A stretch of DNA of 32,000 nt, taken from assembly GCF_000148385.1 (NCBI RefSeq), contig NC_014537.1:180001-212000 (forward strand), given 5' to 3'. The notes below the pieces were generated by a model. It saw nothing but the letters and a program-made list of their open reading frames with translations. It made no database searches and was not told the DNA's origin. How positions within the stretch are numbered: the stretch's first letter is position 1; every line of letters starts with the position of its first letter. The translations under genes and the position numbers were made by a program. This DNA comes from Vulcanisaeta distributa DSM 14429. Its GTDB lineage: Archaea; Thermoproteota; Thermoprotei; Thermoproteales; Thermocladiaceae. This document shows, one piece after another, positions 1-11,141 of this stretch.

Positions 1-57
1 TACACAATTAAGAGCTCCGATATAAAGACGCCTAGAGATAATACCAGCTCTACTTCA

Positions 58-1965
58 ATGTATTGTATAAGCACTAAAAATGGCTGTAGATATAGTAACT
101 ATTTCGTTAAGATTTTTGTAGACGGTGATCATAACAATTGGAATCCTGTAATACTTGGATACGAGATTAAAAACACGAGAATGCTCACGCTAGACATTAA
201 GGATTTAATAAGAAAAATAGCCTCATCAATAGTCAATATCGGTGAAGTAGAGCAAGGACAGGACTTAAAGCTTGATTATGAATATAAAACCCTCAGCACA
301 AATACTGCAGTAGTTAATCTACTAAGGCATTACCTATCTCATGACTTGGTAATAACGTATTACTTAACAAGGCTTGGCTTCACAAAGATCGATAAATACG
401 TTAATCTTTCAATACTAATAAATGATTTATTCCTCGGTAATAAACTAACCGTGAAGTTGGAAAAGGACGATGTTAAGGATCTTGCTAGTGATATTATTAA
501 TGATTTCATTAAATCATTTGATAAGGAAATAAGGCAGTCCTGGATATCATTATTACGATATGTATTATCCACGGTCAAAGGTGAGAGGTTAGAAACATAC
601 CGTATATTTCGTGAATGTAAGAATAATAAAAATACTCAAAGATACTGTATTCCTCACGAGGAAGCGGAGAATATTTGGAATAACATAGAAAAGCGAATAG
701 AAGGTATCTTAAAGAACTATAGTGAAATACCGAGTTACTTTGGGGTTAGGACTACTTATTGGTACGTTGGCGCTATTATTGATATCATAAAGCATACATT
801 AAGTCATCATTTAATAAGAACTATTAGCACAAGATATAGTGTTAACCCAAGTAAACTTATTGAGTATTATTACGAAATGAGAGGAGACGCTAAGGTTTCC
901 ATCATGGAAAGGGACTCTGGGGGTATTGGTGTATTAAATGTGGCCTTTGAGTCATGGGAAAAATCTGATAAGGAATTGAGGGAGAGACAAGTCGCTATTG
1001 AGGACCTCATACTATCCTTAGGTAAGTGCCTTGTCGGTACTCCTGAAGACTTACTGCACTTCGCGTTGCTGAATGATGATATTCGTGAAAGGTTATGTAG
1101 CGGTAAAGATAATGATGTAAGAGAGGGTATAAGGGAGATTATTAGGAGATTGAACATAATAGTTACCCCAGATGAGTTTGAGGAGACTATTAAGTTATGG
1201 AAATCAATATACGAGGAGGCTGATAGACTTACACGAATATTACGCAATGGGAATAATTACTTAGGTAATGAACCATGTAAATTATTAAGGGCTGTTCATG
1301 AGTTAAGACATGAACTGGAGAAGAAAATGAGGAGGTTTCCGGACATGGACGAATTGATGGCTTATATGCTCGAGAATATTGATGAATACTCCATACTTAA
1401 TGATTTGCTAACTAAGATGCTAGAGAGGGGGCTTAGGACCTCTGGCAGGTTTAGGGAATTTCTTCATGAGTTGTATGGAACGAATGATTATGTTAAGAGG
1501 TTCATAGGGGGTGTTAATTTTATCCTGAGAAGCAGAATACAGGACATCGATCATTTAAAGGAACTGGTGAGAAACAGTAATGATATCGTGTCAAAGTACG
1601 GCACTAAGGCGCTTGAGAAAATAACTGAATGTGTAGGTAAGCGAAGGGATGGTGATGATACGTGTAAAGCAGTTATACATGCATTGAAGCTTTTGGGTAG
1701 GGCACTCCGTGCGGTGTTAATGAGGATCTCGCTACTTAGTTGTAATGGTGCATGCGGTATGTGCTATGTGAATACTAAGTCATGCAGTAGGTTTGGCGCA
1801 CCCTTCATTCAGGCCAGGACACTTGATAGGAGGGTCCTTAAGGTACTTGCCTCCGAACTCGTTAGGCACATGAGCGATATCGTTAGGGATTACTACGGCG
1901 TTAATAAGGATGTTGATGTTATTGTGGAGCTTGGCGGTGAGCCCCGTACATTGAGGTGTGAATAA
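58..1965 (+). CDS. DUF1998 / MrfA-type zinc-ribbon domain protein (DISARM DrmB-like); may begin left of the window
   Basis: 635-codon ORF. 'HTLSHHL' (aa 246-252), then 'ERDSGGIG' (aa 284-291), then a C-terminal 4-Cys cluster C562-x3-C566-x2-C569-x6-C576 (nt 1741-1785) fit my recollection of the DUF1998 pattern. TAATG stop/start overlap with the next gene. ATATAAA at 20-26 lies about 35 nt upstream of the ATG. The frame has no stop back to nt 1, so an upstream start outside the window is possible. Confidence 0.55.
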   Translation: MYCISTKNGCRYSNYFVKIFVDGDHNNWNPVILGYEIKNTRMLTLDIKDLIRKIASSIVNIGEVEQGQDLKLDYEYKTLSTNTAVVNLLRHYLSHDLVITYYLTRLGFTKIDKYVNLSILINDLFLGNKLTVKLEKDDVKDLASDIINDFIKSFDKEIRQSWISLLRYVLSTVKGERLETYRIFRECKNNKNTQRYCIPHEEAENIWNNIEKRIEGILKNYSEIPSYFGVRTTYWYVGAIIDIIKHTLSHHLIRTISTRYSVNPSKLIEYYYEMRGDAKVSIMERDSGGIGVLNVAFESWEKSDKELRERQVAIEDLILSLGKCLVGTPEDLLHFALLNDDIRERLCSGKDNDVREGIREIIRRLNIIVTPDEFEETIKLWKSIYEEADRLTRILRNGNNYLGNEPCKLLRAVHELRHELEKKMRRFPDMDELMAYMLENIDEYSILNDLLTKMLERGLRTSGRFREFLHELYGTNDYVKRFIGGVNFILRSRIQDIDHLKELVRNSNDIVSKYGTKALEKITECVGKRRDGDDTCKAVIHALKLLGRALRAVLMRISLLSCNGACGMCYVNTKSCSRFGAPFIQARTLDRRVLKVLASELVRHMSDIVRDYYGVNKDVDVIVELGGEPRTLRCE

Positions 1966-2732
1966 TGCTATGGATATGTAAGGACTCTAGTAGAAGCCTT
2001 TCATCAATGTCCATCGAGGAGTTAATGAGGCGGTTTCTTCACGAATCATTTGGGAGTAAGTACATTTACATTATTTCTCCCTGGATCACGCCGTTTACGT
2101 TAAGTTCACGCTTTATTCATTATCCTTATGTATCATCTAATAACGTTATTGATGTACTTAAAGCACTGAGTAATTCGGGCGTTGGTGTTAAGGTCTTAAT
2201 GAGGTGTATCGATGATTCCATGGATATTCAACTCATAAGGGTATTGACTAACTTAGTTCGGGAGAGGCAGATTATACTCAACAACGAGGTTAAGTCATTC
2301 TTTAGAGATAGAATTGATGACTTCCTTAATCGTGCTAATGCAATGATAGACTTAGCTAGGGACCTAAAGGATGCGGTTAGATTTGACTTAGGCGCTGATG
2401 ATAAGCTTCTCACATGGTATAGACTTCATACTAAGCTTTACATTAATGACCACTCTGTTATTATGGGTTCAGCCAACTTTACGAGAGGGGGCATTCTCGA
2501 TGATGGTAATTGGGAGTGTGTGAGTCACTTCACTAAGGAGGAGAATACGGAGATCTACAACTACGCATTGAGAGTTGCCCAACATTACTTCAGTATTAGT
2601 AAAGGTTTTAGTGATTGTGAACGTAGGGTTGTGAGAATTGTCAATGAGTTCGGCGGCGTGGTTAACGAGCCAATTTACAGTATTGAGGACCTAATTGAGT
2701 ACCTGGAGCGGGTTAGGGATAGCCTATATTGA
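1965..2732 (+). CDS. PLD-superfamily (HKD) nuclease, DrmC/Nuc-like
   Basis: 255-codon ORF with a single HKD motif H155-T-K-LYIN-D-HSVIM-GSAN (nt 2427-2477), i.e. HxKxxxxD...GSxN. The ATG overlaps the upstream stop by 1 nt, suggesting translational coupling. Confidence 0.75.
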   Translation: MLWICKDSSRSLSSMSIEELMRRFLHESFGSKYIYIISPWITPFTLSSRFIHYPYVSSNNVIDVLKALSNSGVGVKVLMRCIDDSMDIQLIRVLTNLVRERQIILNNEVKSFFRDRIDDFLNRANAMIDLARDLKDAVRFDLGADDKLLTWYRLHTKLYINDHSVIMGSANFTRGGILDDGNWECVSHFTKEENTEIYNYALRVAQHYFSISKGFSDCERRVVRIVNEFGGVVNEPIYSIEDLIEYLERVRDSLY

Positions 2733-3464
2733 TCTTCGTCTTTGTTCTATCAGGCCGTACCTCAGGGCGTGCCTGTTTATCCAGACCGCTGTCATTGTTA
2801 GGGGTGTCAGCATTACTTTCCCCAGGGCTTGGTAGAGCGCCGTCAGTACTAATTGGTTGTTTGGTATTGTTCCGTAGAATGCCAGTGGCACGAATACGAG
2901 GGAGTCAATGAGCATGCTCACGGGGTCTGAGTAGCCAACCCTCCTAAGCACGCCACCCCTTAACCTACTCACTAGGTAAACGTCGTAGGTTTGCTATGTC
3001 GTGAATGCCACCACTGAGGCTATTACAACCCTAATATTCACTGTCATGACCTCAGCAAATGCACCCTGCATTTTCCAGATTGGGGCTGGTGGGAATTCAA
3101 TTACGAGGTAATTAAGCAATGCTATTAGGAGTTGTGTTATTATGGCTATCCTGACCACGGCATAGCCATAGCCCCTGCCGTACCTGAGGGTTACGTAGTC
3201 GAGTATAGCCACTGAGGCTGAGTATGTGATTAACCCCATTGGGAACATTATTGGTCCAATGGCCCCAATCTTACTCGCCAGGTATTGACTAGTGGTTAGT
3301 AATAGCATGTATAGCATGAAGGATATTGGGAGTAGGTAATCATGCCTACCCAGCCTATACAATGCCCAGAGTATTGATGATGTGACGAAGTAAGTCACAA
3401 CAGAGCTCAGGTAGAACAGGCCCAACGCCGTTAATACCGCGCCCATGGTGATCACACCAACCAC
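2724..3464 (-). pseudogene. yhhQ: YhhQ/DUF165-family queuosine-precursor (preQ0/preQ1) transporter interrupted by one in-frame TAG
   Basis: Track ORFs 2994-3464 (156 aa) and 2724-2972 (82 aa) are in the same frame (3464-2972=492). They are separated only by TAG at 2994-2996 plus 7 sense codons. The joined reading '...TTSQYLASKIG...ASVVAFTT*QTYDVYLVSRLRGG..RRVGYSDPVSMLIDSLVFVPLAFYG' is collinear with the YhhQ pattern as I recall it (A-S-x-x-A-Y-x-x-G-Q-x-x-D-V...R-L-R...S-x-x-x-D-x-x-x-F-x-x-x-A-F). The hydrophobic profile is polytopic. Confidence 0.7.
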
Positions 3465-5299
3465 TGATCGAGGGTTGACTTGGCGAGTGACTCCACAATT
3501 TCACGCAACTCCCTAATCTTCCTAAGCCTGGCGCTTAGACTTCCGGCGATGATAATCGCGGCCCTAACACCATTGACCTTACCCACGGCGCTCTTCGGCA
3601 GTATTAAGACCGCGTTCTCCTCATGCACGAGCCTATTAAGCACGCCCTCAATGGCGTGGGCATACTCACGGGGTAACGCAACAATTACTAAGTCGTAGCC
3701 ATTACCAACAACGCGCATTAGCTTGTCCTCGACCCCCATCCTCCTCGACCAATTCCTAATCCACTCCTTATCCCTGCCCTTGAGGGATGCCTCATACGGT
3801 ATTATTGGGTAATCCTCCCTAATGAGTCCATACCTCGCACTGATTATGTATAGGTCAACCACCTTACCAAGCCTCCTCAACTCATCTGCCAGGTTCTTGA
3901 TAGCCCTGAAGGAGCCCCCATACATCTCGCCGGCAGGCTTTATGAAGCCCCTGAGTACCTCCCTATACCTATCCTCAAGCTCAATGTCGAAGGAGGGCAT
4001 CCTCAATGAGTGCTTCATTAATGCTTTCTGGACCTCATTAATATTGACGGTCTTACTCGAGGTGCAGTTCGTGATTATTAAAACCCTCCTCGCACCCCTC
4101 AGCTTAACCGCCAAGTCACTGCTCAATGCGGTGGCGCCTTCACCGTTGGTGCTGACCTCAAGTTTGGGTATTGTGAATTTCGTGATTAACTCATCACGAT
4201 TAAGCAGCTTGCTAAATACGTACACGTTGTGGAATCCCCTCCTCCTATTCCTGTTGTTTCCCCTGAATATAACTACGTCAATACCTATTGACCTACAGAC
4301 ACCACAGTCACACTTTTTCCAGGGCATGTCCCTAAGGAGCGCGGCGTAGTACGGTAGGTAGTGCGTATGGCCGATGCGAGCTACGTAACTCCTCAGGGCA
4401 CTCATTACCTCGTCATACGTTATCCTGCCCTCATCATAGAGCCTGAGCTTCCTCATTAATTCATCATCCCTCTCAACAATCCTAATAGCCGTGTACGCCT
4501 TACCATCGGTGGTTAGGTAATTGCCTAACTCCCTGGTCCAGGCAATCCTCAGCACAGTGGAGCTGTCAAAGGAGACCTCACCAACGTAATTGCTCAACTT
4601 CCTCAGCTTGGGTATTACCGAGAGCCTTGTTATTCCCAAGAAGTGAACCTTCTCGACATCACCCAGCTTACTAACGACCTCCCTGATCCTGGTCACCAAC
4701 TCATCTATGAACTTCGTATCCCTCCTGGCGAGGCCCCCAATGGCGAAGTGCCTATAACCAACCTTATACAGTCTCTCCAGGTTATTTACGTAATCGTCGA
4801 TTGTCAAACCCTGCACCGAGGCCATGAGCCTAAAGCCGTAATTACCGCCCCTCCAGGCCTCCAGCATCTTAATGGCGTTGTTTATCGTGATCTCAATCCT
4901 CCTCTGTGAGTCGCCGAAGAGGGGTATGTGGTCGAGGGTTACTCCATAGTCTACGCCGAGCGCCTCGTAGTACTGTAGCACCTCACTTATCGTGTACGGC
5001 GGGACATCCATGTACCTATACTGCCACGCACCGCAATCACCAATTACCTGCATGCTACTGGGTAGCCTCATAAAGCCACGCACACCACCGGCACTCCTTA
5101 TCCCGTTTAGCTTTGTTTTGGTAATCACGGATATCGAGACCAGGACACCATCAATGACATTGCCGACCAACTCCCAAAGTCTTGCACCGTTCACGTACTT
5201 ATCCCTCTTAAAGCCCTCCGAGGGTTTCTCGCTTATGAAGTCGTAACCTGAATCGACAATGTCATCCCAATCAGGCAATATGAACTTTAGCCTCCTCAT
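3452..5299 (-). CDS. TGT-fold transglycosylase, DpdA-like, fused to a C-terminal YaaA/DUF328-like domain
   Basis: 615 codons. TGT hallmarks are retained: 'GVDYGVTLDHIP' (D123), 'FAIGGLA', 'VHFLGI', 'EVSFDSS' (D245), and the Zn site C330-x-C332-x2-C335...H357-N (nt 4229-4312). The N-terminus 'FILPDWDDIVDSGYDF' is unlike tRNA ArcTGT, and no PUA-like tail is recognisable. Residues about 404-615 carry 'VLIITNCTSSKT', 'IISARYGLIREDYPIIPYEASL' and 'LVIVALPREY'. Confidence 0.7.
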   Translation of the reverse strand: MRRLKFILPDWDDIVDSGYDFISEKPSEGFKRDKYVNGARLWELVGNVIDGVLVSISVITKTKLNGIRSAGGVRGFMRLPSSMQVIGDCGAWQYRYMDVPPYTISEVLQYYEALGVDYGVTLDHIPLFGDSQRRIEITINNAIKMLEAWRGGNYGFRLMASVQGLTIDDYVNNLERLYKVGYRHFAIGGLARRDTKFIDELVTRIREVVSKLGDVEKVHFLGITRLSVIPKLRKLSNYVGEVSFDSSTVLRIAWTRELGNYLTTDGKAYTAIRIVERDDELMRKLRLYDEGRITYDEVMSALRSYVARIGHTHYLPYYAALLRDMPWKKCDCGVCRSIGIDVVIFRGNNRNRRRGFHNVYVFSKLLNRDELITKFTIPKLEVSTNGEGATALSSDLAVKLRGARRVLIITNCTSSKTVNINEVQKALMKHSLRMPSFDIELEDRYREVLRGFIKPAGEMYGGSFRAIKNLADELRRLGKVVDLYIISARYGLIREDYPIIPYEASLKGRDKEWIRNWSRRMGVEDKLMRVVGNGYDLVIVALPREYAHAIEGVLNRLVHEENAVLILPKSAVGKVNGVRAAIIIAGSLSARLRKIRELREIVESLAKSTLDQWLV

Positions 5300-5468
5300 T
5301 ACCTACACCTAGTTATTACCGGCGCAATAAATTAAGCCAGTAATTGAGGGCTCATGTATTGACAGGAGTATCATGCGAGTATTCCCTTAAATTGTCGTGT
5401 TTCATTGTGTTCCACTCAATTACATAGTATTTAATCAATTTACCTGGTTAAAAGATATTGCGATAAGA

Positions 5469-5476
5469 TTTATTAA
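5469..5476 (+). promoter_or_regulatory. TATA-like box (TTTATTAA) for the 5508-8034 operon
   Basis: AT-rich octamer centred about 35 nt upstream of ATG 5508. Similar TATA-like element to ATG spacings are seen at 20-26/58 (about 35 nt) and 8043-8049/8080 (about 34 nt), consistent with short or no leaders. It sits in a 208-bp divergent intergenic region. Confidence 0.35.
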
Positions 5477-5507
5477 GTACAGCTTTGGCCAGGTCTAGTG
5501 GGTCTTC

Positions 5508-6164
5508 ATGAGGCCCTTCACGCTGAGGGGTATTTACGAATTCCTAAACCTGCTTAGGTCCGGTGGTTCCATAGGCGGTGATAGGAGGTTGAGGGAATTC
5601 CTCAGGGCATCCCTCGACCTGGGCTTCGTGAGTGAGGTGAATGGTACATACGTAATCACCGAGAGGGGGTCACGCTTCATGAGTGCGATGGAGGTCGGCG
5701 ATGCCACCACGATCCACGCACTGCTTATGGATAGCCTTGAGAGTTATAGGAGGGTTTACGAATTAGTGAGCAGGGGCGTTACTAAGCCGAGTGAATTGAT
5801 TAGGTTGACAGGTTATAATGCCGTGGTCATTGATATAGTGATGAGGCTCATAAGGGAGGTTGAGGCATTGAGCCCGGGCTCGCCACTTAGTAAGGACTTA
5901 TACGCCAGGTTTGAGGAGGTATTACTGAGTAAGTATAGGGAGTTGAGTAGGAGGAGATGGAGCAGATACGTACCAATCACGGAGTTAGTTAGGGAGGTTA
6001 GGAATGAACTCAATATACCCAATAGGGTCGTTAATGCATTCCTTGAGGAGTTCATCAGAAGGATGGGTAGTAAGGTCGTACTCACCGGAGCACCTGGTAA
6101 GGGTGGTAGGGGGTCAATGGAGATCAATGGTAGGAGGTTCACGTACATAATGATCGGTGATTAG
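5508..6164 (+). CDS. Winged-helix (wHTH)-like protein of unknown function
   Basis: 218-codon ORF. 'LGFVSEVNGTYVITERGSRF' looks like a recognition-helix-plus-wing segment, and a second helical repeat follows. The stop lies 2 nt before the next ATG. Confidence 0.45.
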   Translation: MRPFTLRGIYEFLNLLRSGGSIGGDRRLREFLRASLDLGFVSEVNGTYVITERGSRFMSAMEVGDATTIHALLMDSLESYRRVYELVSRGVTKPSELIRLTGYNAVVIDIVMRLIREVEALSPGSPLSKDLYARFEEVLLSKYRELSRRRWSRYVPITELVREVRNELNIPNRVVNAFLEEFIRRMGSKVVLTGAPGKGGRGSMEINGRRFTYIMIGD

Positions 6165-6166
6165 TC

Positions 6167-7117
6167 ATGAGGACCCTACTACCGATACCGTCAATTGAGG
6201 ATGCCGAGCACATATTTGACCCTCACGGCATTACCGAAGAACTCACGAAATACGTAAACCTAGTGGCCAGCGGCCCCTCGGGTGCAGGCGTGATAATTGG
6301 CAACTACGGCTTTGGGAAGACCCACGTAATGCTCCACTTAATGAGCATTGTCAGGAAGAGGTTCACTAATTCAGTAATTATTTATGTAAACACGCCGGGA
6401 CAAAGCATACTCAATGTCTATAGGGCGCTAATGGTGGGCGTGCTCGATGGTGGGCTCCTCGACAGGGCTGTGAATGGGTTGGGCACGCCCATTAGGGACT
6501 TGGTGCTTTTGTTGAGGGAGGGTGGTGATGAGGCTAGGTACGCGAGGCAGTGGTTGCTCGGTGACCCAGCACCGCAGGGGTTTAGGGCTAAGTATGGGCT
6601 TCCATCAACTAGGGTTAATGATGAACTGGCGGTTAAGTTCATGGTGGAGGTGATAAATGCCCTCACCGGCGTTGGTTACGGCCCCGTACTCATAATGCTC
6701 GATGAGTTTGAGGACGTGATAACCATTGGGCCCACCAGGAAGCTCCAGTACCTGAGTCAATTGAGGGTTTTCATCGATAACCTACCTAGTAAGACCTTAT
6801 TCATGGTGTCATCAACACCCGCCGGTTGGGATGAGATTGTCAATACTTACCCAGCCCTCGCCAGGAGGCTATCATCATTCATAATTTACCTAAGGCCCTT
6901 CAACATTGACGAGACCAGGCAATTCATAAATGAATTCACGAGGTGGAGGGGAATTAAGATACCGTTAAGTGATGAGTTGGTTAGGACGATATACGAATTC
7001 ACCGAGGGTAACCCAGGGGAGGTGGTTAAGGCCGTTAACTTAATACTCATGGAATTTGGCGGTGTGGGGTCTCTGGACATTGCGAGGGTTAAGGAGTTGT
7101 TATCGAGGCATGTCTAG
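6167..7117 (+). CDS. P-loop NTPase (AAA/ORC-Cdc6-like or DUF2791-like)
   Basis: 316 codons. Walker A 'GNYGFGKT' (aa 45-52, nt 6299-6322), Walker B 'LIMLDEFED' (aa 175-183), and a C-terminal 'FTEGNPGEVVKAV' lid-like helix. Only 2-nt gaps separate it from both neighbours. Confidence 0.75.
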   Translation: MRTLLPIPSIEDAEHIFDPHGITEELTKYVNLVASGPSGAGVIIGNYGFGKTHVMLHLMSIVRKRFTNSVIIYVNTPGQSILNVYRALMVGVLDGGLLDRAVNGLGTPIRDLVLLLREGGDEARYARQWLLGDPAPQGFRAKYGLPSTRVNDELAVKFMVEVINALTGVGYGPVLIMLDEFEDVITIGPTRKLQYLSQLRVFIDNLPSKTLFMVSSTPAGWDEIVNTYPALARRLSSFIIYLRPFNIDETRQFINEFTRWRGIKIPLSDELVRTIYEFTEGNPGEVVKAVNLILMEFGGVGSLDIARVKELLSRHV

Positions 7118-7119
7118 GC

Positions 7120-8034
7120 ATGCCGAGGCTATACATAACCTGGTACGCAGAGCCTGAGGACCCACACTACTGGAGGTTCTTTAGGGTCGGTGGTATCACG
7201 GTCTCACTAAAGTCCTTACTTAAAATGCCTAGGTGGAAATTCACGAGGGTTTTAAGCCAGGGGTTCAGGAGGTTCTTTAATTACGATGGGCCGCTACTCG
7301 TGGACTCCATGCTCACTGAGGTCCATGCACCACGAAGTAACATGCATGGTGATATACCCCAATCACACGTATTATACCTGCAGTACCTACTTGGCTCCGA
7401 CATACTGATTCAGAGGGATTACCCACTGATCCACGTTGACGACCCAGGACTAAGGACTAAACTCTTCAATAGGAACTTGGCAATGGCTGAGGCAGCGCTT
7501 AGGTTTGGTGACTTGGTTGGTAAGGACGTGATGCTCGTGGTTCACGGCTGGAACTTAAACACATACATCAAATGCGCCGAGTACTATAGGGACTTAGGCG
7601 TGAAGTACGTCGGTATTGGATCCCTGGTGCCCCATAGGAGCAACACAAAGTTCTTAATCAATGTGGTTAAGGGTGTTCGCGAAGTCCTCGGTAGTCACGT
7701 CCACATGCACCTCTTCGGCATTAGTACGATAGAGTTAATAACGCAGTTGGGTAACTACGTCGATAGCGTTGACGTGAGTACACCCGCCATTGCCGGTGCT
7801 AAGAAGGAGTTAATTGTTTGGGATGGCAGTAGGTTAATTAGGGTTAAAACAACCACCGTGACCGGGATAAAGATAATGAGCGAGTTAATCGAGAGGTCAA
7901 GTGATGAGTTGGAGAGAAAACTCTTACTCGGCATACTCAATGCCAGGAGTTTGAGGGATAAGAACCTTCATACGATGATTTACAATGCGTACATAATTAC
8001 GAAGTACTGGAATTCAGTCATTGATAAACAATAG
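7120..8034 (+). CDS. Second TGT-fold (DpdA-like) paralog, short, lacking the CxCxxC zinc site
   Basis: 304 codons. 'GSDILIQRDYP' (D100), 'YVGIGSLVPHRSNTKF', 'HMHLFGIS' and 'YVDSVDVSTPAIAG' (D218) parallel the motifs of the 615-aa protein. No Cys triad occurs at the equivalent C-terminal position. Confidence 0.6.
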   Translation: MPRLYITWYAEPEDPHYWRFFRVGGITVSLKSLLKMPRWKFTRVLSQGFRRFFNYDGPLLVDSMLTEVHAPRSNMHGDIPQSHVLYLQYLLGSDILIQRDYPLIHVDDPGLRTKLFNRNLAMAEAALRFGDLVGKDVMLVVHGWNLNTYIKCAEYYRDLGVKYVGIGSLVPHRSNTKFLINVVKGVREVLGSHVHMHLFGISTIELITQLGNYVDSVDVSTPAIAGAKKELIVWDGSRLIRVKTTTVTGIKIMSELIERSSDELERKLLLGILNARSLRDKNLHTMIYNAYIITKYWNSVIDKQ

Positions 8035-8079
8035 GCATAAACATTATAACTCCTAGCTAGACCCCATAAATAATGGGCA

Positions 8080-8481
8080 ATGGGGGGAATTGAGGATAAG
8101 GTAGAGAAGTGCCTGCAAGGTCTCTGCGGTGAGTTCATTATCAGGAGGGTTAATTGCAAGGACCTGGGCGACATTGACCATGGGGTCTACATAGTGATTT
8201 CTGGAAGTGATTACGTAATTGGCTACTCAAGGGATTTGAAACGTAGGTTGAGGATGTACTGCCTAGGTCAACTTGACTTAAGGGGTGTGATCAGGCTATT
8301 AATGGGCAGGCTGGACAACCTGCCGCCGGGCATGTTGGGCAAGGGCGACGTGATTGGTCGGCGTAGCAACCTCTCGAAGTTAATCAATGATATGATGAGT
8401 AATGCCCAGGTATTGACGGTTAAGTGCGCTTCCATGGTTGATAAGGAGCTTTACATAAAGCTTAGGGACTGCCTCAAGTGA
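8080..8481 (+). CDS. Small GIY-YIG-like nuclease-domain candidate
   Basis: 133 codons. 'GVYIVISGSDYVIGYSRDLKRRLRMY' resembles the UvrC-type GIY...YIG...R core ('GVY...VIYVGKAKDLKKRLSSY' as I recall it). ATTATAA at 8043-8049 suggests its own promoter. Confidence 0.4.
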   Translation: MGGIEDKVEKCLQGLCGEFIIRRVNCKDLGDIDHGVYIVISGSDYVIGYSRDLKRRLRMYCLGQLDLRGVIRLLMGRLDNLPPGMLGKGDVIGRRSNLSKLINDMMSNAQVLTVKCASMVDKELYIKLRDCLK

Positions 8482-8492
8482 GTGTTGGGGAC

Positions 8493-8912
8493 CTACGGCC
8501 CCCTCACCTCGCATGGTAATCTCCAAAGCGCCTTTACGTAATCCTCACCGAACTCCTCATCAGGCGCCCCAGCGCCTAGGTAAGGCTGCTTACCGCATAG
8601 CATGCCGATCACCGAGGCGAGGAACCTCCAACCACTCCACCAATAATCATGTGGGTCCGGGTCCGTTATCATGCCGGAATCCTCAATTAACATGTCCAGC
8701 GCATCATTAACAATGTTAATTCTGTCATCACTAACACCGAGCTTTCTCAATAACTCATCAACAACCTCCTTATACCTACTGAGTGGTTCCTCAAAGACCT
8801 TCCTAAGCTCATCCTCACTGAGACTTGAGGTCTCATACTCACTAAACAACCCATCAATCTTCTCCTCAAGCTTAGAAATCTTCTCGCACAAGTCCTTAAC
8901 CTCAGACGGCAT
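8493..8912 (-). CDS. Hypothetical acidic, helical protein
   Basis: 139-codon ORF with an ATG start. An AT-rich TATA-like tract (8934-8948) lies about 25-35 nt upstream on the minus strand. No family recognised. Confidence 0.5.
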   Translation of the reverse strand: MPSEVKDLCEKISKLEEKIDGLFSEYETSSLSEDELRKVFEEPLSRYKEVVDELLRKLGVSDDRINIVNDALDMLIEDSGMITDPDPHDYWWSGWRFLASVIGMLCGKQPYLGAGAPDEEFGEDYVKALWRLPCEVRGP

Positions 8913-9182: not shown

Positions 9183-9653
9183 CTAAGTGGGTAAGGCATA
9201 TGCTATTTTTGTTAAATCGTTTTGGTCTGTTACCAGTACTGTCCAGTATCCTGGGTTGACTTTATCCAGCAGTATTGTGTCTCCCTGTATCGGTATCTTT
9301 ACTACTCCTGTTGAGTTTCCTATGACTACCTCGTAGCTTAATGGTATGAAGTTTTGTCCATTAATCATTGTTCCAGCATTTTGTTGGTTGAATGAGTTGA
9401 TTTCATTAACTGCTTCACTCAGCACTGTGCTGGATACGTTGTATGTTCCTAAGTCGTGTAAATTGCCTTGTTGATCGTAGTAGAATAGTTCGTACTGCCC
9501 ACTCCCCAAAGGTCTCAAGAATGCGTATGGGGCGTTAACGGTTAGGTAAGCCACCGACGGCTTCGAGGCGAATGGATGCATCAGTAGGATCAAGGCAATG
9601 GCTATAACAACAACGGCAACCACAACACCAACAACCAAAACCTTACCAGGCAC
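9183..9653 (-). CDS. Small membrane-anchored/secreted protein (start re-assigned)
   Basis: The track ORF runs to 9908, but its first 85 codons translate an A/C-rich low-complexity tract and overlap thiC. The in-frame GTG at 9653 gives 'MPGKVLVVGVVVAVVVIAIALILL...', a classic N-terminal signal-anchor, followed by a non-repetitive domain. Confidence 0.5.
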   Translation of the reverse strand: MPGKVLVVGVVVAVVVIAIALILLMHPFASKPSVAYLTVNAPYAFLRPLGSGQYELFYYDQQGNLHDLGTYNVSSTVLSEAVNEINSFNQQNAGTMINGQNFIPLSYEVVIGNSTGVVKIPIQGDTILLDKVNPGYWTVLVTDQNDLTKIAYALPT

Positions 9654-9896
9654 AAAACAACAAACCAAAAAACAAATTAAAACATTACCCCAAAGCCCAG
9701 GCAATGAAAAGGCAACACCCAATAAATAATCACAGTAATTAAAAAGATTGTGAAAAAATTGAGGTTCAGGAAGAAACACAACGCATACACACAAACAACG
9801 AAACAAACATAGAACAAAATTCTCCCAAACCCAGGCGCAACGAAACAATGTTCGATTAATAATTACAACATTAGGGTTGGGCTTAAGGTTAAGGCC

Positions 9897-11141
9897 GTGG
9901 CTAAGCATGAGGGTGTTGAGGAGGTTAAATTGGCCAGGAGAATAGCCAGTGGTAAGGTGATACTCATTAGAAACGTTAAGTTGCCCGATAAGGTTAGCGC
10001 AGTTGGTCTTGGGTTAACCACTAAGGTTAACGTTAACATAGGCACGTCGAGCGAGGTCGTGAACCTGGAAGCGGAGCTTGAGAAGGTTAAGATCGCTAAT
10101 AAGTGGGGCGATACATTGATGGACCTATCAACGGGCGGTGACCTTGACGAGATACGTAGGGCGATAATCAGGGAGTCGAAGTTGCCCGTCGGTACTGTAC
10201 CGACATATCAAGCGTTCATAGACTCATTTAAGAAAAAGGGCGGTGGGGCCTACTTCACCGAGGATGAACTCTTCGATGTCATCGAGAGGCACCTAAGGGA
10301 TGGGGTTGCCTTCATGACGATACACGCGGCCGTGACCAGGGAATTGGCAATTAAGGCCTTGAGGAGTGACAGGGTCATACCGATCGTCTCCAGGGGTGGT
10401 GATATGCTCATTGGGTGGATGCTCCATAACGATGCCGAGAACCCACTCTACGCTAGGTGGGATTACGTGCTCGAGCTCTTCAGGGAGTACGATGCCACCA
10501 TCTCAATAGGCGATGCCCTACGCCCAGGCGCCACGGCGGATAGTCACGACGAGTTTCACGTGGCTGAGTTGATCGAGGCGGCGAGACTGGTGAAGAGGAC
10601 AAGGAAGGCTGGGGTTCAGGTGATGGTTGAGGGGCCTGGGCACGTCCCATTAAATGAAATTATATGGGATGTTAAGTTAATGAAGAAGTTAACCGATGGT
10701 GCGCCGTACTACGTCCTAGGTCCACTACCTACTGACGTGGCTGCCCCATACGACCACATCGCTGGCGCTATTGGCGCGGCGATCGCTGGAGCCGCGGGCG
10801 CGGACTTACTATGTTATATAACGCCCGCTGAGCACCTGGGTTTGCCAACACCGAGGCAGGTTGAGGAGGGTGTGATAGCCTTCAAAATAGCGGCTCACGT
10901 GGCCGACACAATAAAGCTTGGCAGGAGGGCCAGGGCCTGGGATGACGAGGTTAGTAGGTTCAGGGGCAAGCTGATGTGGAGGGAGATGATAAATAGATTG
11001 ATAGATCCGGAAAAGGCCTGGGCCGTGTATACACAGTACGGGGAACCCAAGGTTAGAGGTTGCACAATGTGCGGTGGTTACTGCCCAATGCTCATGGTGA
11101 TGCAACAGATCAAGAAGGTTAAGGGTGAAGTCAATGGGTGA
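9897..11141 (+). CDS. thiC: Phosphomethylpyrimidine synthase ThiC
   Basis: 414 codons. 'GTVPTYQA', 'SRGG', 'DALRPG', 'EGPGHVP', '[17 protein letters not shown]' and the C-terminal radical-SAM-type cluster '[10 protein letters not shown]' are all present. Confidence 0.9.

What the first reader, a model, noticed from the sequence alone, without database searches (positions are those of the whole stretch)
58..8481. Candidate novel archaeal defence island combining DISARM-like and Dpd-like (7-deazaguanine DNA modification) parts
Eight adjacent genes here look non-housekeeping. A DUF1998-type Zn-ribbon protein is followed by a PLD/HKD nuclease with a 1-nt stop/start overlap. Convergent to them are a YhhQ-type 7-deazapurine-precursor transporter and a long TGT-fold protein. 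Divergent from those is a wHTH, P-loop ATPase, second TGT-fold protein operon with 2-nt gaps, followed by a GIY-YIG-like ORF. DUF1998 followed by PLD is the DrmB-DrmC order of DISARM. A TGT paralog that needs an ATPase partner, with nuclease or helicase genes alongside, is the logic of the bacterial Dpd system, where DpdA inserts preQ0 into DNA in a DpdB-ATPase-dependent reaction. I see no DNA methyltransferase in the window. My hypothesis is that 7-deazaguanine insertion, rather than methylation, supplies the self-mark for a DISARM-like restriction module. Archaea already make preQ0 for tRNA archaeosine, so the substrate would be available. I do not know of this gene combination being described.
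Basis: partly seen in the sequence, partly recalled or inferred. Interest (0 to 1): 0.88.

Follow-up and report, generated by a model that had tools for sequence, protein, structure and literature searches.

The report
Archaeal two-transglycosylase Dpd-type defence island
This stretch of the Vulcanisaeta distributa genome is most of an archaeal version of the bacterial Dpd system, which probably marks the cell's own DNA with 7-deazaguanine bases and cuts unmarked DNA, but it uses two transglycosylases and a different ATPase from the bacterial system.

Summary
The eight genes are real and mostly as described. They are about two-thirds of a ~15-kb island of Vulcanisaeta distributa that runs ~6.3 kb past the left window edge.

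The long TGT-fold protein is a bona fide DpdA (NCBIfam equivalog, 275.8 bits, cutoff 200) fused to a DpdC-type DUF6884 domain. The "DISARM-like" pair is better read as Dpd's own DpdJ/DpdK. An off-window helicase matches DpdJ (3e-40), gene 1 is the C-terminal part of a 927-aa DUF1998-like partner, and the PLD matches DpdK better than DrmC.

ParB-like DpdB and DpdD–I are absent. A tandem winged-helix protein, an ORC/BrxD-like AAA+ ATPase and a compact, zinc-less TGT paralog with all catalytic aspartates form an operon instead. It sits beside this cassette wherever contigs reach far enough (47 of 61 loci, Thermoproteota and one Bathyarchaeota MAG).

YhhQ carries an in-frame stop here. No methyltransferase is present.

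Verdict: a Dpd-type 7-deazaguanine modification–restriction system, a new archaeal variant of a known kind rather than a DISARM/Dpd hybrid. I found no description of it in the searchable literature. DNA modification is inferred, not shown. Interest 0.62.

The parts
1..1965 (+). C-terminal 655 codons of a 927-aa gene ('JC'). It is the DUF1998/MZB-like, C-terminal-half equivalent of a split DpdJ. The gene starts 818 nt left of the window and follows a 975-aa DpdJ-like DEAD helicase with a 25-nt overlap.
   Evidence: Frame 1 is open from base 1 and identical to L001/L002. The full ORF is at L002 3618-6401. Profile support is weak: PADLOC DpdJ E 0.0027 at profile positions 768-817, hhalign to bacterial DpdJ residues 758-810 at E 0.005 with only 7% probability, and Pfam MZB E 0.02-0.05. 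Conserved motifs are HT..HH, E...GG and C854/C858/C861/C868 in 927-aa numbering. Homologues lie next to the helicase and PLD in related loci.
1965..2732 (+). PLD/HKD nuclease of DpdK type, the predicted restriction effector. It overlaps the previous gene by 1 nt.
   Evidence: Pfam PLDc_2 39.1 bits, above the cutoff of 27. PADLOC DpdK 2.4e-10 against DrmC 2e-6. NCBIfam DpdK 33.1 bits, below the cutoff of 100. H155-x-K157...D162...G168-S169-x-N171 is conserved in 31 homologues.
2724..3464 (-). yhhQ (preQ0/7-deazapurine precursor transporter) interrupted by an in-frame TAG at 2994-2996. It is probably a pseudogene in this strain.
   Evidence: The Vut_1 / TIGR00697 matches are split over two ORFs. 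The sequence reads VVAFTT*QTYDVYLVSRL, against the intact ITAFLASQTYDVYLVSRL in the Vulcanisaeta MAG L008. The same stop occurs in three independent assemblies, L001-L003.
3452..5299 (-). DpdA::DpdC fusion (615 aa). The N-terminal part (~1-380) is a DNA-guanine transglycosylase. The C-terminal part (~403-577) is a DUF6884 domain, the DpdC type that converts preQ0 to ADG.
   Evidence: NCBIfam DpdA equivalog 275.8 bits, above the cutoff of 200. PADLOC DpdA 6.7e-76 and DpdC 1.9e-9. PDB 7UI4 (S. Montevideo DpdA) at E 9.4e-51 over the full length. D88, D123, D245 and C330/C332/C335/H357 are conserved in at least 90% of 26 homologues, as are CxxxK (C412-K416) and ISAxxG (486-491). These are the motifs given for DUF6884 in PMC11701544. 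DUF6884 is the DpdC domain according to 10.1101/2025.02.24.639861.
5300..5507 (.). AT-rich (37% GC) divergent intergenic region between dpdA::dpdC and the three-gene operon. It is the presumed promoter and regulatory region.
   Evidence: Geometry and composition. It was not analysed further.
5508..6164 (+). 218-aa protein made of winged-helix modules. It is the predicted DNA-binding or adaptor subunit of the three-gene operon.
   Evidence: The AlphaFold model has a mean pLDDT of 85.6 and consists of helical and winged-helix modules. It has no significant PDB neighbour (best E 0.046). The weak hits are winged-helix proteins such as SelB-C, AlkX/YcaQ, ORC and MukF. Pfam HTH_45 E 0.006. It is always the first gene of the operon. 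The family HMM hits the Bathyarchaeota counterpart at 5e-13.
6167..7117 (+). 316-aa AAA+ P-loop ATPase of the ORC/Cdc6 and BrxC/BrxD-like type. It is the predicted energy source for base exchange, a functional stand-in for DpdB.
   Evidence: Pfam BrxC_BrxD 42.2 bits (cutoff 22.2) and ATPase_2 38 bits (cutoff 33.2). NCBIfam BrxD 35.6 bits against a cutoff of 350, so it is not a BrxD equivalog. Walker A (G.YG.GKTH) and Walker B (DE.E) are conserved in 45 homologues. It is homologous to the Bathyarchaeota cluster ATPase (BLASTP 8e-23; family HMM 9e-94).
7120..8034 (+). TGT2, a 304-aa compact TGT-superfamily paralog. It has all three catalytic Asp residues and no zinc site. It is predicted to be a second nucleic-acid transglycosylase.
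   Evidence: Pfam TGT 33.9 bits, above 26.3. NCBIfam DpdA 47.5 bits, against tgt_general 24.1 and arcTGT 18.1. The only PDB sequence hit is DpdA 7UI4, and D218 aligns to the nucleophile D256. Invariant residues are D62-S63, D94/D100, G143-W144, G167-S168-L169, H197 and D218, with no Cys motif. The model has pLDDT 89.2 and a TGT TIM barrel, with TM 0.77 to arcTGT 1IQ8; DpdA is also among the hits. The family is small, with 21 clusters at E<=1e-30 in 1.84 billion representatives.
8080..8481 (+). g8, a 133-aa accessory gene that is GIY-YIG-like and Cys-rich. It follows TGT2 in one sub-clade.
   Evidence: Pfam GIY-YIG E 0.052, below threshold. The pattern GVY...G.....GYS.....RL and five Cys are conserved in 12 homologues. 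Homologues lie directly after TGT2 in L008, L061, L062 and about 15 metagenome loci.
8493..8912 (-). g9, a 139-aa helical protein of unknown function, convergent on g8. It may be an island accessory gene.
   Evidence: No family hit. Homologues occupy the same position in L008, L062 and L099.

Best explanation
The finding is the right-hand part of a ~15-kb accessory island of Vulcanisaeta distributa. The island encodes an archaeal variant of the Dpd (7-deazaguanine) DNA modification-restriction system.

Shown by homology:
- g4 is a DpdA DNA-guanine transglycosylase fused to a DpdC-type DUF6884 domain.
- g2 is a DpdK-like PLD nuclease.
- g1 plus the off-window 975-aa helicase correspond to a split DpdJ. 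This assignment is strong for the helicase and weak for g1.
- yhhQ is a preQ0 transporter gene, broken in this strain.

Shown by comparative genomics:
- These genes travel with an operon of a winged-helix protein, an AAA+ ATPase and a second, compact TGT (TGT2). TGT2 keeps the catalytic aspartates.
- They usually also travel with a ~1000-aa P-loop/coiled-coil protein and a ~400-aa protein upstream of the helicase.

Inferred mechanism:
1. preQ0 comes from the cell's archaeosine pathway.
2. It is swapped for guanine at specific DNA sites.
3. The DUF6884 domain hydrates it to dADG.
4. There is no ParB-like DpdB. I infer that the AAA+ ATPase and winged-helix protein supply the ATP-dependent DNA handling that DpdB gives DpdA in Salmonella.
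5. TGT2 is either a second insertase, with its own site or base, or a partner subunit of DpdA.
6. DNA lacking the mark is unwound by the DpdJ-like helicase and cut by the PLD nuclease.
For: Organism: P0001 and P0019 are 100% identical V. distributa proteins on a 2,374,137-bp contig.

DpdA::DpdC:
- NCBIfam DpdA 275.8 bits, above the cutoff of 200. PADLOC DpdA 6.7e-76 and DpdC 1.9e-9. Pfam DUF6884.
- Full-length alignment to the DpdA crystal structure 7UI4 at E 9.4e-51.
- Catalytic Asp residues, the Zn ligands and the DUF6884 motifs are conserved.

Restriction half:
- Helicase matches DpdJ at 3.1e-40.
- PLD matches DpdK at 2.4e-10.
- The order P-loop ~1000 aa / ~400 aa / helicase + JC / PLD parallels the canonical DpdH-x-DpdJ-DpdK order in Mycolicibacterium.

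Linkage:
- Of 61 loci carrying TGT2, 51 show the whole three-gene operon. The other ten include nine cut within 800 nt upstream of TGT2, and L062, whose first gene my ORF caller missed.
- 47 of the 61 carry Hel, JC or PLD. The 14 without them are loci truncated by a contig end before the side where the cassette would lie.
- The clade that seemed to lack DpdA::DUF6884 has it on the far side of the cassette.
- A Bathyarchaeota MAG has homologous ATPase (HMM 9e-94), second TGT (hhalign 96.7%), winged-helix protein and DpdA::DUF6884. It also has an unsplit DEAD+MZB helicase, a PLD, and GCHY-1/QueD/QueC/QueE.
- queC, yhhQ and queF occur in other loci.

Accessory nature:
- Among 185,579 species genomes only three archaeal relatives carry the helicase over its full length. 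They are a Vulcanisaeta MAG, Thermoproteus sp. CP80 and a Pyrodictiaceae MAG.
- Gene order varies between loci.
- The flanking genes are housekeeping.
- The restriction genes are 32-40% GC against 47-50% for the rest.

Not tRNA enzymes: arcTGT scores are 31.7 and 18.1 bits against a cutoff of 350.
Against: - No 7-deazaguanine has been measured in any archaeal chromosome. Function is inferred from homology and linkage only.
- DpdB, which is required for DpdA activity in Salmonella (PMC10164549), is absent. So are DpdD-I.
- The DpdJ C-terminal/DUF1998 assignment of g1 is below threshold.
- DpdK is below NCBIfam's equivalog cutoff (33 against 100 bits).
- The ~1000-aa protein shows no demonstrable homology to DpdH beyond a P-loop.
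- The purpose of a second TGT is unexplained. Structure search cannot say whether TGT2 is closer to DpdA or to arcTGT.
- yhhQ is disrupted here, which could signal decay of the system.
Confidence: 0.72

Rival explanations
1. One reading: a hybrid system in which a DISARM restriction module (DrmA/DrmB/DrmC) has swapped its methyltransferase for a Dpd-like 7-deazaguanine modification module.
For: DUF1998 followed by PLD is also the DrmB-DrmC order. The helicase has secondary DrmA hits (1.3e-12) and the PLD a secondary DrmC hit (2e-6). No methyltransferase is present.
Against: Each component scores better against the Dpd counterpart: DpdJ 3.1e-40 against DrmA 1.3e-12, and DpdK 2.4e-10 against DrmC 2e-6. 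NCBIfam DrmC reaches 13.1 bits against a cutoff of 133. Canonical bacterial Dpd already contains helicase-DUF1998 (DpdJ) followed by PLD (DpdK) (PMC5699537), so no recombination with DISARM needs to be assumed.
Confidence: 0.08
2. The winged-helix / ATPase / TGT2 operon is not a writer. It is the reader arm of restriction. TGT2 flips out guanines to test whether they are modified, the AAA+ ATPase transduces the signal, and DpdA::DpdC alone writes the mark.
For: The operon is strictly co-inherited with the helicase/PLD cassette. BrxC/D-like and ORC-like ATPases act as sensors or scaffolds in BREX-type systems (PMC12839542). This would explain why two TGT paralogs coexist.
Against: All three catalytic Asp residues and the base-pocket residues are invariant in TGT2, which a pure reader would not need. 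In one clade a QueF-family gene follows TGT2 directly in the same operon, which suggests TGT2 handles a preQ0-derived substrate. DpdA would then lack any ATPase partner.
Confidence: 0.12
3. Housekeeping tRNA or RNA modification: both TGT-fold proteins are divergent arcTGT/ArcS paralogs acting on tRNA, and the neighbouring helicase and nuclease are unrelated.
For: Archaea use arcTGT, ArcS and QueF-L for archaeosine. The best structural neighbour of TGT2 is arcTGT 1IQ8 (TM 0.77). A Bathyarchaeota second TGT scores 184 bits on the arcTGT model.
Against: g4 passes the DpdA equivalog cutoff and scores only 31.7 bits against 350 on arcTGT. TGT2 scores 18.1. Pfam, PADLOC and NCBIfam report nothing beyond the TGT and DUF6884 domains in either protein, so I saw no sign of arcTGT's C-terminal tRNA-binding domains. 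Linkage to helicase, PLD and DUF6884 is constant across 47 loci. Distribution is patchy and the restriction genes have atypical GC.
Confidence: 0.03
4. A decaying, non-functional remnant in this strain: the island was acquired but is being lost, as the yhhQ nonsense codon would suggest.
For: There is an in-frame TAG in yhhQ. The restriction genes have a foreign-looking composition.
Against: All other genes are intact full-length ORFs with conserved catalytic motifs. yhhQ is optional and absent from most related loci. An archaeon that makes archaeosine would not need to import preQ0.
Confidence: 0.05

Closest known systems
Bacterial Dpd system (dpdA-K) of Salmonella enterica serovar Montevideo (Thiaville 2016; Yuan 2018; Gedara 2023, PMC10164549)
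   Same: A DpdA-type DNA-guanine transglycosylase with the same catalytic Asp residues and Zn site. A DpdC-type DUF6884 domain. A DpdJ-like DEAD helicase (+DUF1998) followed by a DpdK-like PLD. yhhQ and que genes embedded in some clusters. An island-like, patchy distribution.
   Different: No ParB/DndB-like DpdB, and no DpdD, E, F, G, H or I. DpdA and DpdC are fused. DpdJ is split into two ORFs. The island has an added operon of a winged-helix protein, an ORC/BrxD-like AAA+ ATPase and a second zinc-less TGT paralog. It also has two unrelated upstream proteins (P-loop/coiled-coil ~1000 aa and ~400 aa). The host is archaeal and hyperthermophilic.
DISARM (DrmA helicase, DrmB DUF1998, DrmC PLD, DrmMI/MII methyltransferase)
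   Same: The helicase / DUF1998 / PLD restriction logic, with weak secondary profile hits to DrmA and DrmC.
   Different: No methyltransferase. All components score better as DpdJ/DpdK. The DrmC equivalog cutoff is far from met (13 against 133 bits).
BREX-related capture (BRC) system with a TGT homolog and STAND NTPase (PMC12839542, 2026)
   Same: A TGT-family enzyme without DpdB or DpdC. An alternative P-loop NTPase and a DNA-binding protein are proposed to drive 7-deazaguanine insertion. Some members are archaeal.
   Different: BRC is built around HerA/FtsK, PglZ, DUF6079 and DUF4007, with GNAT. None of these was detected here. The present system has DpdA::DpdC, DpdJ/K-like genes and an ORC/BrxD-like ATPase.
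Viral DpdA subfamilies (DpdA1-4) of phages and archaeal viruses (PMC6884629, PMC10516641)
   Same: Compact TGT-fold enzymes of ~250-320 aa, some lacking Zn ligands, that insert 7-deazaguanines into DNA. TGT2 has structural matches to several, including a Sulfolobales rod-shaped virus TGT.
   Different: TGT2 has no sequence match in 50,697 phage records or in IMG/VR. It is chromosomal and linked to a restriction cassette. The viral enzymes serve anti-restriction and are not paired with this ATPase.

Membership tests
Dpd system | DpdA: a TGT-paralog DNA-guanine transglycosylase with three catalytic/recognition Asp residues and a Zn site | tested here: met
   NCBIfam NF041059 275.8 bits, above the cutoff of 200. 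7UI4 at E 9.4e-51. D88, D123, D245 and C330/C332/C335/H357 are conserved, matching D95, D130 and D256 in PMC10164549.
Dpd system | DpdB: a ParB/DndB-like ATPase required for DpdA activity | tested here: not met
   No ParB, DndB or DpdB hit for any protein of the window island or the left extension in Pfam, PADLOC or NCBIfam.
Dpd system | DpdC: a DUF6884/YaaA-like enzyme converting dPreQ0 to dADG | tested here: met
   Present as the C-terminal domain of g4. PF21818 scores 30.5 bits against a cutoff of 30. PADLOC DpdC 1.9e-9. The CxxxK and (L/I)SAxxG motifs are conserved. Its activity was not tested.
Dpd system | DpdJ: a DEAD/DEAH helicase with a C-terminal DUF1998 | tested here: inconclusive
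   The off-window 975-aa helicase matches PADLOC DpdJ at 3.1e-40, covering profile positions 149-514 of 1487. The 927-aa partner has only weak DpdJ (0.0027), hhalign (E 0.005, 7% probability) and MZB (0.02-0.05) signals. The gene is split in two.
Dpd system | DpdK: a PLD-family nuclease after DpdJ | tested here: inconclusive
   PADLOC DpdK at 2.4e-10 is the best hit. NCBIfam DpdK scores 33.1 bits against a cutoff of 100. The HKD motif is conserved and the gene sits directly after the DpdJ-like genes.
Dpd system | DpdD, E, F, G, H and I restriction components | tested here: not met
   No PADLOC hits to these families. The ~1000-aa P-loop protein aligns to DpdH only at the Walker A region (hhalign probability 2.7%).
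Dpd system | dPreQ0/dADG present in genomic DNA and restriction of unmodified DNA | not testable with these tools
   Requires LC-MS/MS and transformation or infection assays.
DISARM | DrmA helicase, DrmB (DUF1998) and DrmC (PLD) as best matches | tested here: not met
   DrmA 1.3e-12 is weaker than DpdJ 3.1e-40. DrmC scores 13.1 bits against a cutoff of 133. There is no DrmB hit, and MZB is below threshold.
DISARM | An associated DNA methyltransferase (DrmMI or DrmMII) | tested here: not met
   No methyltransferase domain in any large ORF of the 32-kb window or the 6.3-kb left extension.
arcTGT (TgtA) / ArcS tRNA enzymes | Score above the TgtA equivalog cutoff | tested here: not met
   TIGR00432 scores 31.7 bits for g4 and 18.1 bits for g7, against a cutoff of 350. 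Pfam, PADLOC and NCBIfam report no domains beyond TGT and DUF6884 in either protein.
BREX (BrxD) / BRC | A BrxD equivalog together with PglZ, PglX, BrxA/B/C, or HerA/DUF6079 | tested here: not met
   g6 scores 35.6 bits on BrxD against a cutoff of 350. No other BREX or BRC component was detected.

The most novel reading that the evidence does not exclude
The winged-helix / AAA+ ATPase / TGT2 operon is a previously unrecognised, DpdB-independent, ATP-driven DNA base-exchange machine. The system then writes two different 7-deazaguanine marks on archaeal chromosomes. One would be dADG, made by DpdA::DpdC. The other would be made by TGT2: preQ0, or G+/preQ1 where a QueF-family gene follows it. If so, V. 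distributa would give the first case of 7-deazaguanine in cellular archaeal DNA.
Probability: 0.3. Interest if true: 0.85.

Novelty: new variant of a known kind. Interest (0 to 1): 0.62.

Why it matters
- In the papers I could search, Dpd has been characterised only in bacteria. A genome-mining survey that required dpdA and dpdB found it in eight bacterial phyla and no archaea.
- This island shows that archaea carry a recognisable Dpd relative that dispenses with DpdB. That raises the question of how DpdA is powered and targeted here.
- It offers a conserved candidate answer: an ORC/BrxD-like AAA+ ATPase, a winged-helix protein and a second TGT.
- V. distributa is a cultured type strain. Whether archaeal chromosomal DNA carries 7-deazaguanines can therefore be tested directly by mass spectrometry.
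- The system is thermophilic, compact and modular, which suits biochemistry and sequence-specific DNA base-exchange tools.

Tried and rejected
- I first thought a QueF-containing clade (L006, L060) lacked DpdA::DUF6884, which would have made TGT2 self-sufficient. Fetching the rest of that contig showed YhhQ and DpdA::DUF6884 on the far side of the restriction cassette, so I rejected this.
- I tried to show that the 927-aa protein is the C-terminal half of DpdJ by profile-profile alignment to Mycolicibacterium and Amycolatopsis DpdJ. Only a 53-column N-terminal match appeared (E 0.005, probability 7%), so this stays weak.
- I tried the same for the ~1000-aa P-loop protein against DpdH. Only the Walker A region aligned.
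- Structure search of TGT2 could not separate DpdA from arcTGT or bacterial TGT.
- Structure search of g5 gave no significant neighbour.
- TGT2 has no relatives in IMG/VR or in phage GenBank records. PHROGs gave only generic TGT hits.
- The exact-sequence lookup of the truncated g1 failed because the real gene is longer.
- The genome-contig scan did not return V. distributa itself, so I could not compare synteny with sister Vulcanisaeta genomes directly.
- The Thiaville 2016 PNAS paper is not in the held library.

Full report
**What is in the sequence.**
- g1 is listed as 58-1965 (+) and overlaps g2 (1965-2732, +) by 1 nt.
- Convergent on these are two ORFs of yhhQ (2724-2972 and 2994-3464, -) and a 615-aa gene, g4 (3452-5299, -).
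- Across a 208-nt spacer lies g5 (5508-6164), g6 (6167-7117) and g7 (7120-8034). They are separated by 2-nt gaps.
- g8 (8080-8481) follows.

Exact-sequence lookups show the source is Vulcanisaeta distributa. The proteins are 100% identical to ones on a 2,374,137-bp contig.

Three corrections to the anatomy are needed.
1. Frame 1 is open from base 1 and matches two independent assemblies of the same locus. So g1 is the last 655 codons of a 927-aa gene that starts 818 nt left of the window.
2. yhhQ is split by an in-frame TAG at 2994-2996, not by a frameshift. The intact orthologue in a Vulcanisaeta MAG has Ser there.
3. The left extension (contig L002) adds three more genes on the same strand as g1 and g2. 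They are a 975-aa DEAD helicase, a 423-aa protein, and the end of a P-loop/coiled-coil protein that is 1118 aa in the MAG.

**What the proteins are.**
- *g4* passes NCBI's equivalog model for DpdA (275.8 bits, cutoff 200). It matches PADLOC DpdA at 6.7e-76 and aligns end to end with the crystal structure of Salmonella DpdA, 7UI4, at E 9.4e-51.
  - The residues shown by mutagenesis or modelling to matter in DpdA are D95, D130, D256 and the zinc site (PMC10164549). They correspond to D88, D123, D245 and C330/C332/C335/H357.
  - These are conserved in at least 90% of 26 homologues.
- *The C-terminal third of g4* is a DUF6884 domain (Pfam 30.5 bits; PADLOC DpdC 1.9e-9).
  - It keeps the family's CxxxK and (L/I)SAxxG motifs.
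  - DUF6884 is the Pfam domain of DpdC.
- *g2* is a PLD/HKD nuclease (PLDc_2 39.1 bits). Its best defence-family match is DpdK (2.4e-10), ahead of DrmC (2e-6).
- *The off-window helicase* matches DpdJ at 3.1e-40, against DrmA at 1.3e-12.
- *The 927-aa protein (g1)* has only weak signals.
  - Its N-terminus aligns where DpdJ continues after the helicase (PADLOC E 0.0027; hhalign E 0.005).
  - It has a sub-threshold MZB/DUF1998 hit.
  - It has conserved HTxxHH, E...GG and four-Cys motifs separated by a long insertion.
- *g6* is an AAA+ ATPase with conserved Walker A and B motifs. It matches BrxC_BrxD and archaeal ATPase_2 families but is far below the BrxD equivalog cutoff.
- *g5* gives a confident model (pLDDT 85.6) of winged-helix modules with no significant solved neighbour.
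- *g7 (TGT2)* is a 304-aa TGT-superfamily protein (Pfam 33.9 bits, cutoff 26.3).
  - NCBIfam scores it 47.5 bits on DpdA, 24.1 on tgt_general and 18.1 on arcTGT. Its only PDB sequence hit is DpdA.
  - In 19 homologues D62-S63, D94/D100, G143-W144, G167-S168-L169, H197 and D218 are invariant. D218 aligns with the DpdA nucleophile. There is no zinc motif.
  - The model (pLDDT 89.2) is a TGT TIM barrel. Structure search cannot separate arcTGT, bacterial TGT and DpdA as neighbours.
- *g8* has only a sub-threshold GIY-YIG hit, plus a conserved GVY...GYS...RL pattern and five Cys.

**Is this one unit?**
Yes. TGT2 is a small family, with 18 clusters in a 5.8-billion-protein search. It has 21 clusters at E<=1e-30 among 1.84 billion representatives.

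I collected 61 loci that carry it, from genomes and hot-spring metagenomes.
- 51 show the complete winged-helix / ATPase / TGT2 operon. Nine of the other ten are cut off within 800 nt upstream of TGT2. The tenth is L062, whose first gene my ORF caller missed.
- 47 carry helicase, JC or PLD genes. The 14 that do not are loci truncated by a contig end before the side where the cassette would lie.
- DpdA::DUF6884 is adjacent in the main clade. In a second clade it sits, with yhhQ, beyond the restriction cassette. I found this only after fetching the rest of that contig.
- That clade also has a QueF-family gene directly after TGT2, and sometimes queC and yhhQ.
- Gene order differs between lineages, which argues for selection on co-occurrence rather than frozen synteny.

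The same architecture recurs at great distance in a Bathyarchaeota MAG.
- It has an ATPase (family HMM 9e-94), a second TGT (hhalign 96.7%), a winged-helix protein (5e-13) and DpdA::DUF6884.
- It also has a PLD, an unsplit 1847-aa DEAD+Helicase_C+MZB protein, and GCHY-1, QueD, QueC and QueE in one cluster.

**Accessory island.**
- Genes from 9.9 kb onward are housekeeping: thiC, the LysW pathway, carbamoyl-phosphate synthase, argG/H.
- A helicase-based scan of one genome per species (185,579 species) returned only a Vulcanisaeta MAG, Thermoproteus sp. CP80 and a Pyrodictiaceae MAG as full-length relatives.
- The restriction genes are 32-40% GC (GC3 0.41-0.44). The modification genes are 47-50% GC (GC3 0.60-0.64), like the housekeeping genes.
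- The same asymmetry appears across 46 related loci, with a mean difference of 7.5 points. I cannot explain it.

**Most likely mechanism.**
Shown: the homologies and the linkage above.

Inferred:
1. preQ0 from the archaeosine pathway is exchanged for guanine in DNA. Import through YhhQ is presumably lost in this strain.
2. The DUF6884 domain converts it to dADG, as DpdC does (PMC10164549).
3. In Salmonella, DpdA needs the ATPase of ParB-like DpdB. No such protein is encoded here.
4. The always-linked AAA+ ATPase and winged-helix protein are therefore the best candidates for that role.
5. TGT2 keeps its catalytic residues, so I take it to be a second insertase or a partner subunit.
6. Unmarked DNA would be engaged by the DpdJ-like helicase and cut by the PLD.

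The main rival for the three-gene operon is a reader or sensor role in restriction. I rate this lower because of the invariant catalytic Asp residues and the QueF gene in the same operon.

**Comparison with known systems.**
- This is Dpd-like, not a DISARM/Dpd chimera. Helicase-DUF1998 followed by PLD is DpdJ-DpdK in canonical Dpd. A Mycolicibacterium locus retrieved here shows DpdH-x-DpdJ-DpdK in that order. Every component scores better on Dpd models than on DISARM models.
- It fails strict Dpd membership on DpdB and DpdD-I. It only weakly meets the DpdJ C-terminal and DpdK criteria.
- The nearest published idea is the BRC system. There a TGT homolog without DpdB or DpdC is proposed to use a STAND NTPase (PMC12839542). 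The other BRC components are absent here.
- DpdA::DUF6884 fusions are common, with 712 hits at E<=1e-10. NCBI already names those in Bathyarchaeia, Nitrososphaeria and Aenigmatarchaeota MAGs as DpdA. So archaeal DpdA is visible in databases.
- The papers I could search describe Dpd islands only in bacteria. None mentions this two-TGT / AAA+ architecture.

**Verdict.**
The system is a new archaeal variant of a known kind. Its function is inferred, and it can be tested directly in a cultured organism.

Noticed in passing
window 1-2732 and the left extension (L002) compared with window 3452-8034: The restriction genes are much more AT-rich (GC 0.32-0.40, GC3 0.41-0.44) than the modification genes (GC 0.47-0.50, GC3 0.60-0.64), which match housekeeping genes. 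The same direction holds across 46 related loci, with a mean difference of 7.5 points and a maximum of 17. I have no explanation.
   Followed up: partly
window 2994-2996: An in-frame TAG in yhhQ lies at a position that is Ser in the intact orthologue of a Vulcanisaeta MAG. It is present in the window and in three independent assemblies.
   Followed up: yes
L012 5644-16631 (Archaeoglobus sp. UBA230 MAG): A different archaeal TGT-based island. It has a 424-aa TGT::DUF6884 protein next to a split DruE-like helicase whose C-terminus hits DrmB and DrmC. A mad8/HerA-like ATPase and a CARF-type HTH protein lie upstream.
   Followed up: no
proteins P0215, P0235, P0279, P0210, P0216, P0209 (remote TGT2-profile hits): The TGT domains occur in several fusions: ParB_N-HTH_ParB-TGT, DEAD-Helicase_C-HHH-SWIM-TGT, DUF6884-TGT in the reverse order, and TGT-ankyrin. 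The ParB-TGT fusion links a DpdB-like module to a TGT in one polypeptide.
   Followed up: no
L006 3750-4088; L060 5397-5747; L104-L109, L111, L112: A 112-116-aa QueF-family gene directly follows TGT2 in one clade. It scores below the QueF-II cutoff (46-56 bits against 86.9). It has ELLSFKRF where QueF has its NADPH motif, so reductase (preQ1) or QueF-L-type amidinotransferase (G+) is undecided.
   Followed up: partly
L113 12046-12600; L114 121-1539 and 4034-6561: A Cas12f1-like TNB (TnpB-type) gene lies right after DpdA::DUF6884 in one metagenome contig. In the Bathyarchaeota locus a Terminase_6N gene lies ~8 kb upstream of DpdA::DUF6884, and a full preQ0 pathway is in the cluster. These hint at mobility.
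   Followed up: no
window 8493-8912 (-) and 9183-9908 (-): g9 (139 aa) has no family hits but has homologues in the same position in three related loci (L008, L062, L099). A 241-aa ORF in a 41% GC stretch between the island and thiC has no Pfam hit and overlaps the thiC start. It may mark the island boundary.
   Followed up: partly
L001 10031-12509: The helicase is split into 149-aa and 694-aa ORFs in assembly L001 (SRR060023) but is intact in L002. This is most likely an assembly or sequencing frameshift, not biology.
   Followed up: partly
window 9897-32000: The rest of the window is ordinary metabolism: thiC, LysW-type lysine/arginine biosynthesis (two LysX-like ATP-grasp genes, semialdehyde dehydrogenase, amino-acid kinase, aminotransferases, M20 peptidase, homocitrate synthase), carbamoyl-phosphate synthase, argininosuccinate lyase and synthase, and a MetE-like gene. 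No tRNA genes were found.
   Followed up: yes
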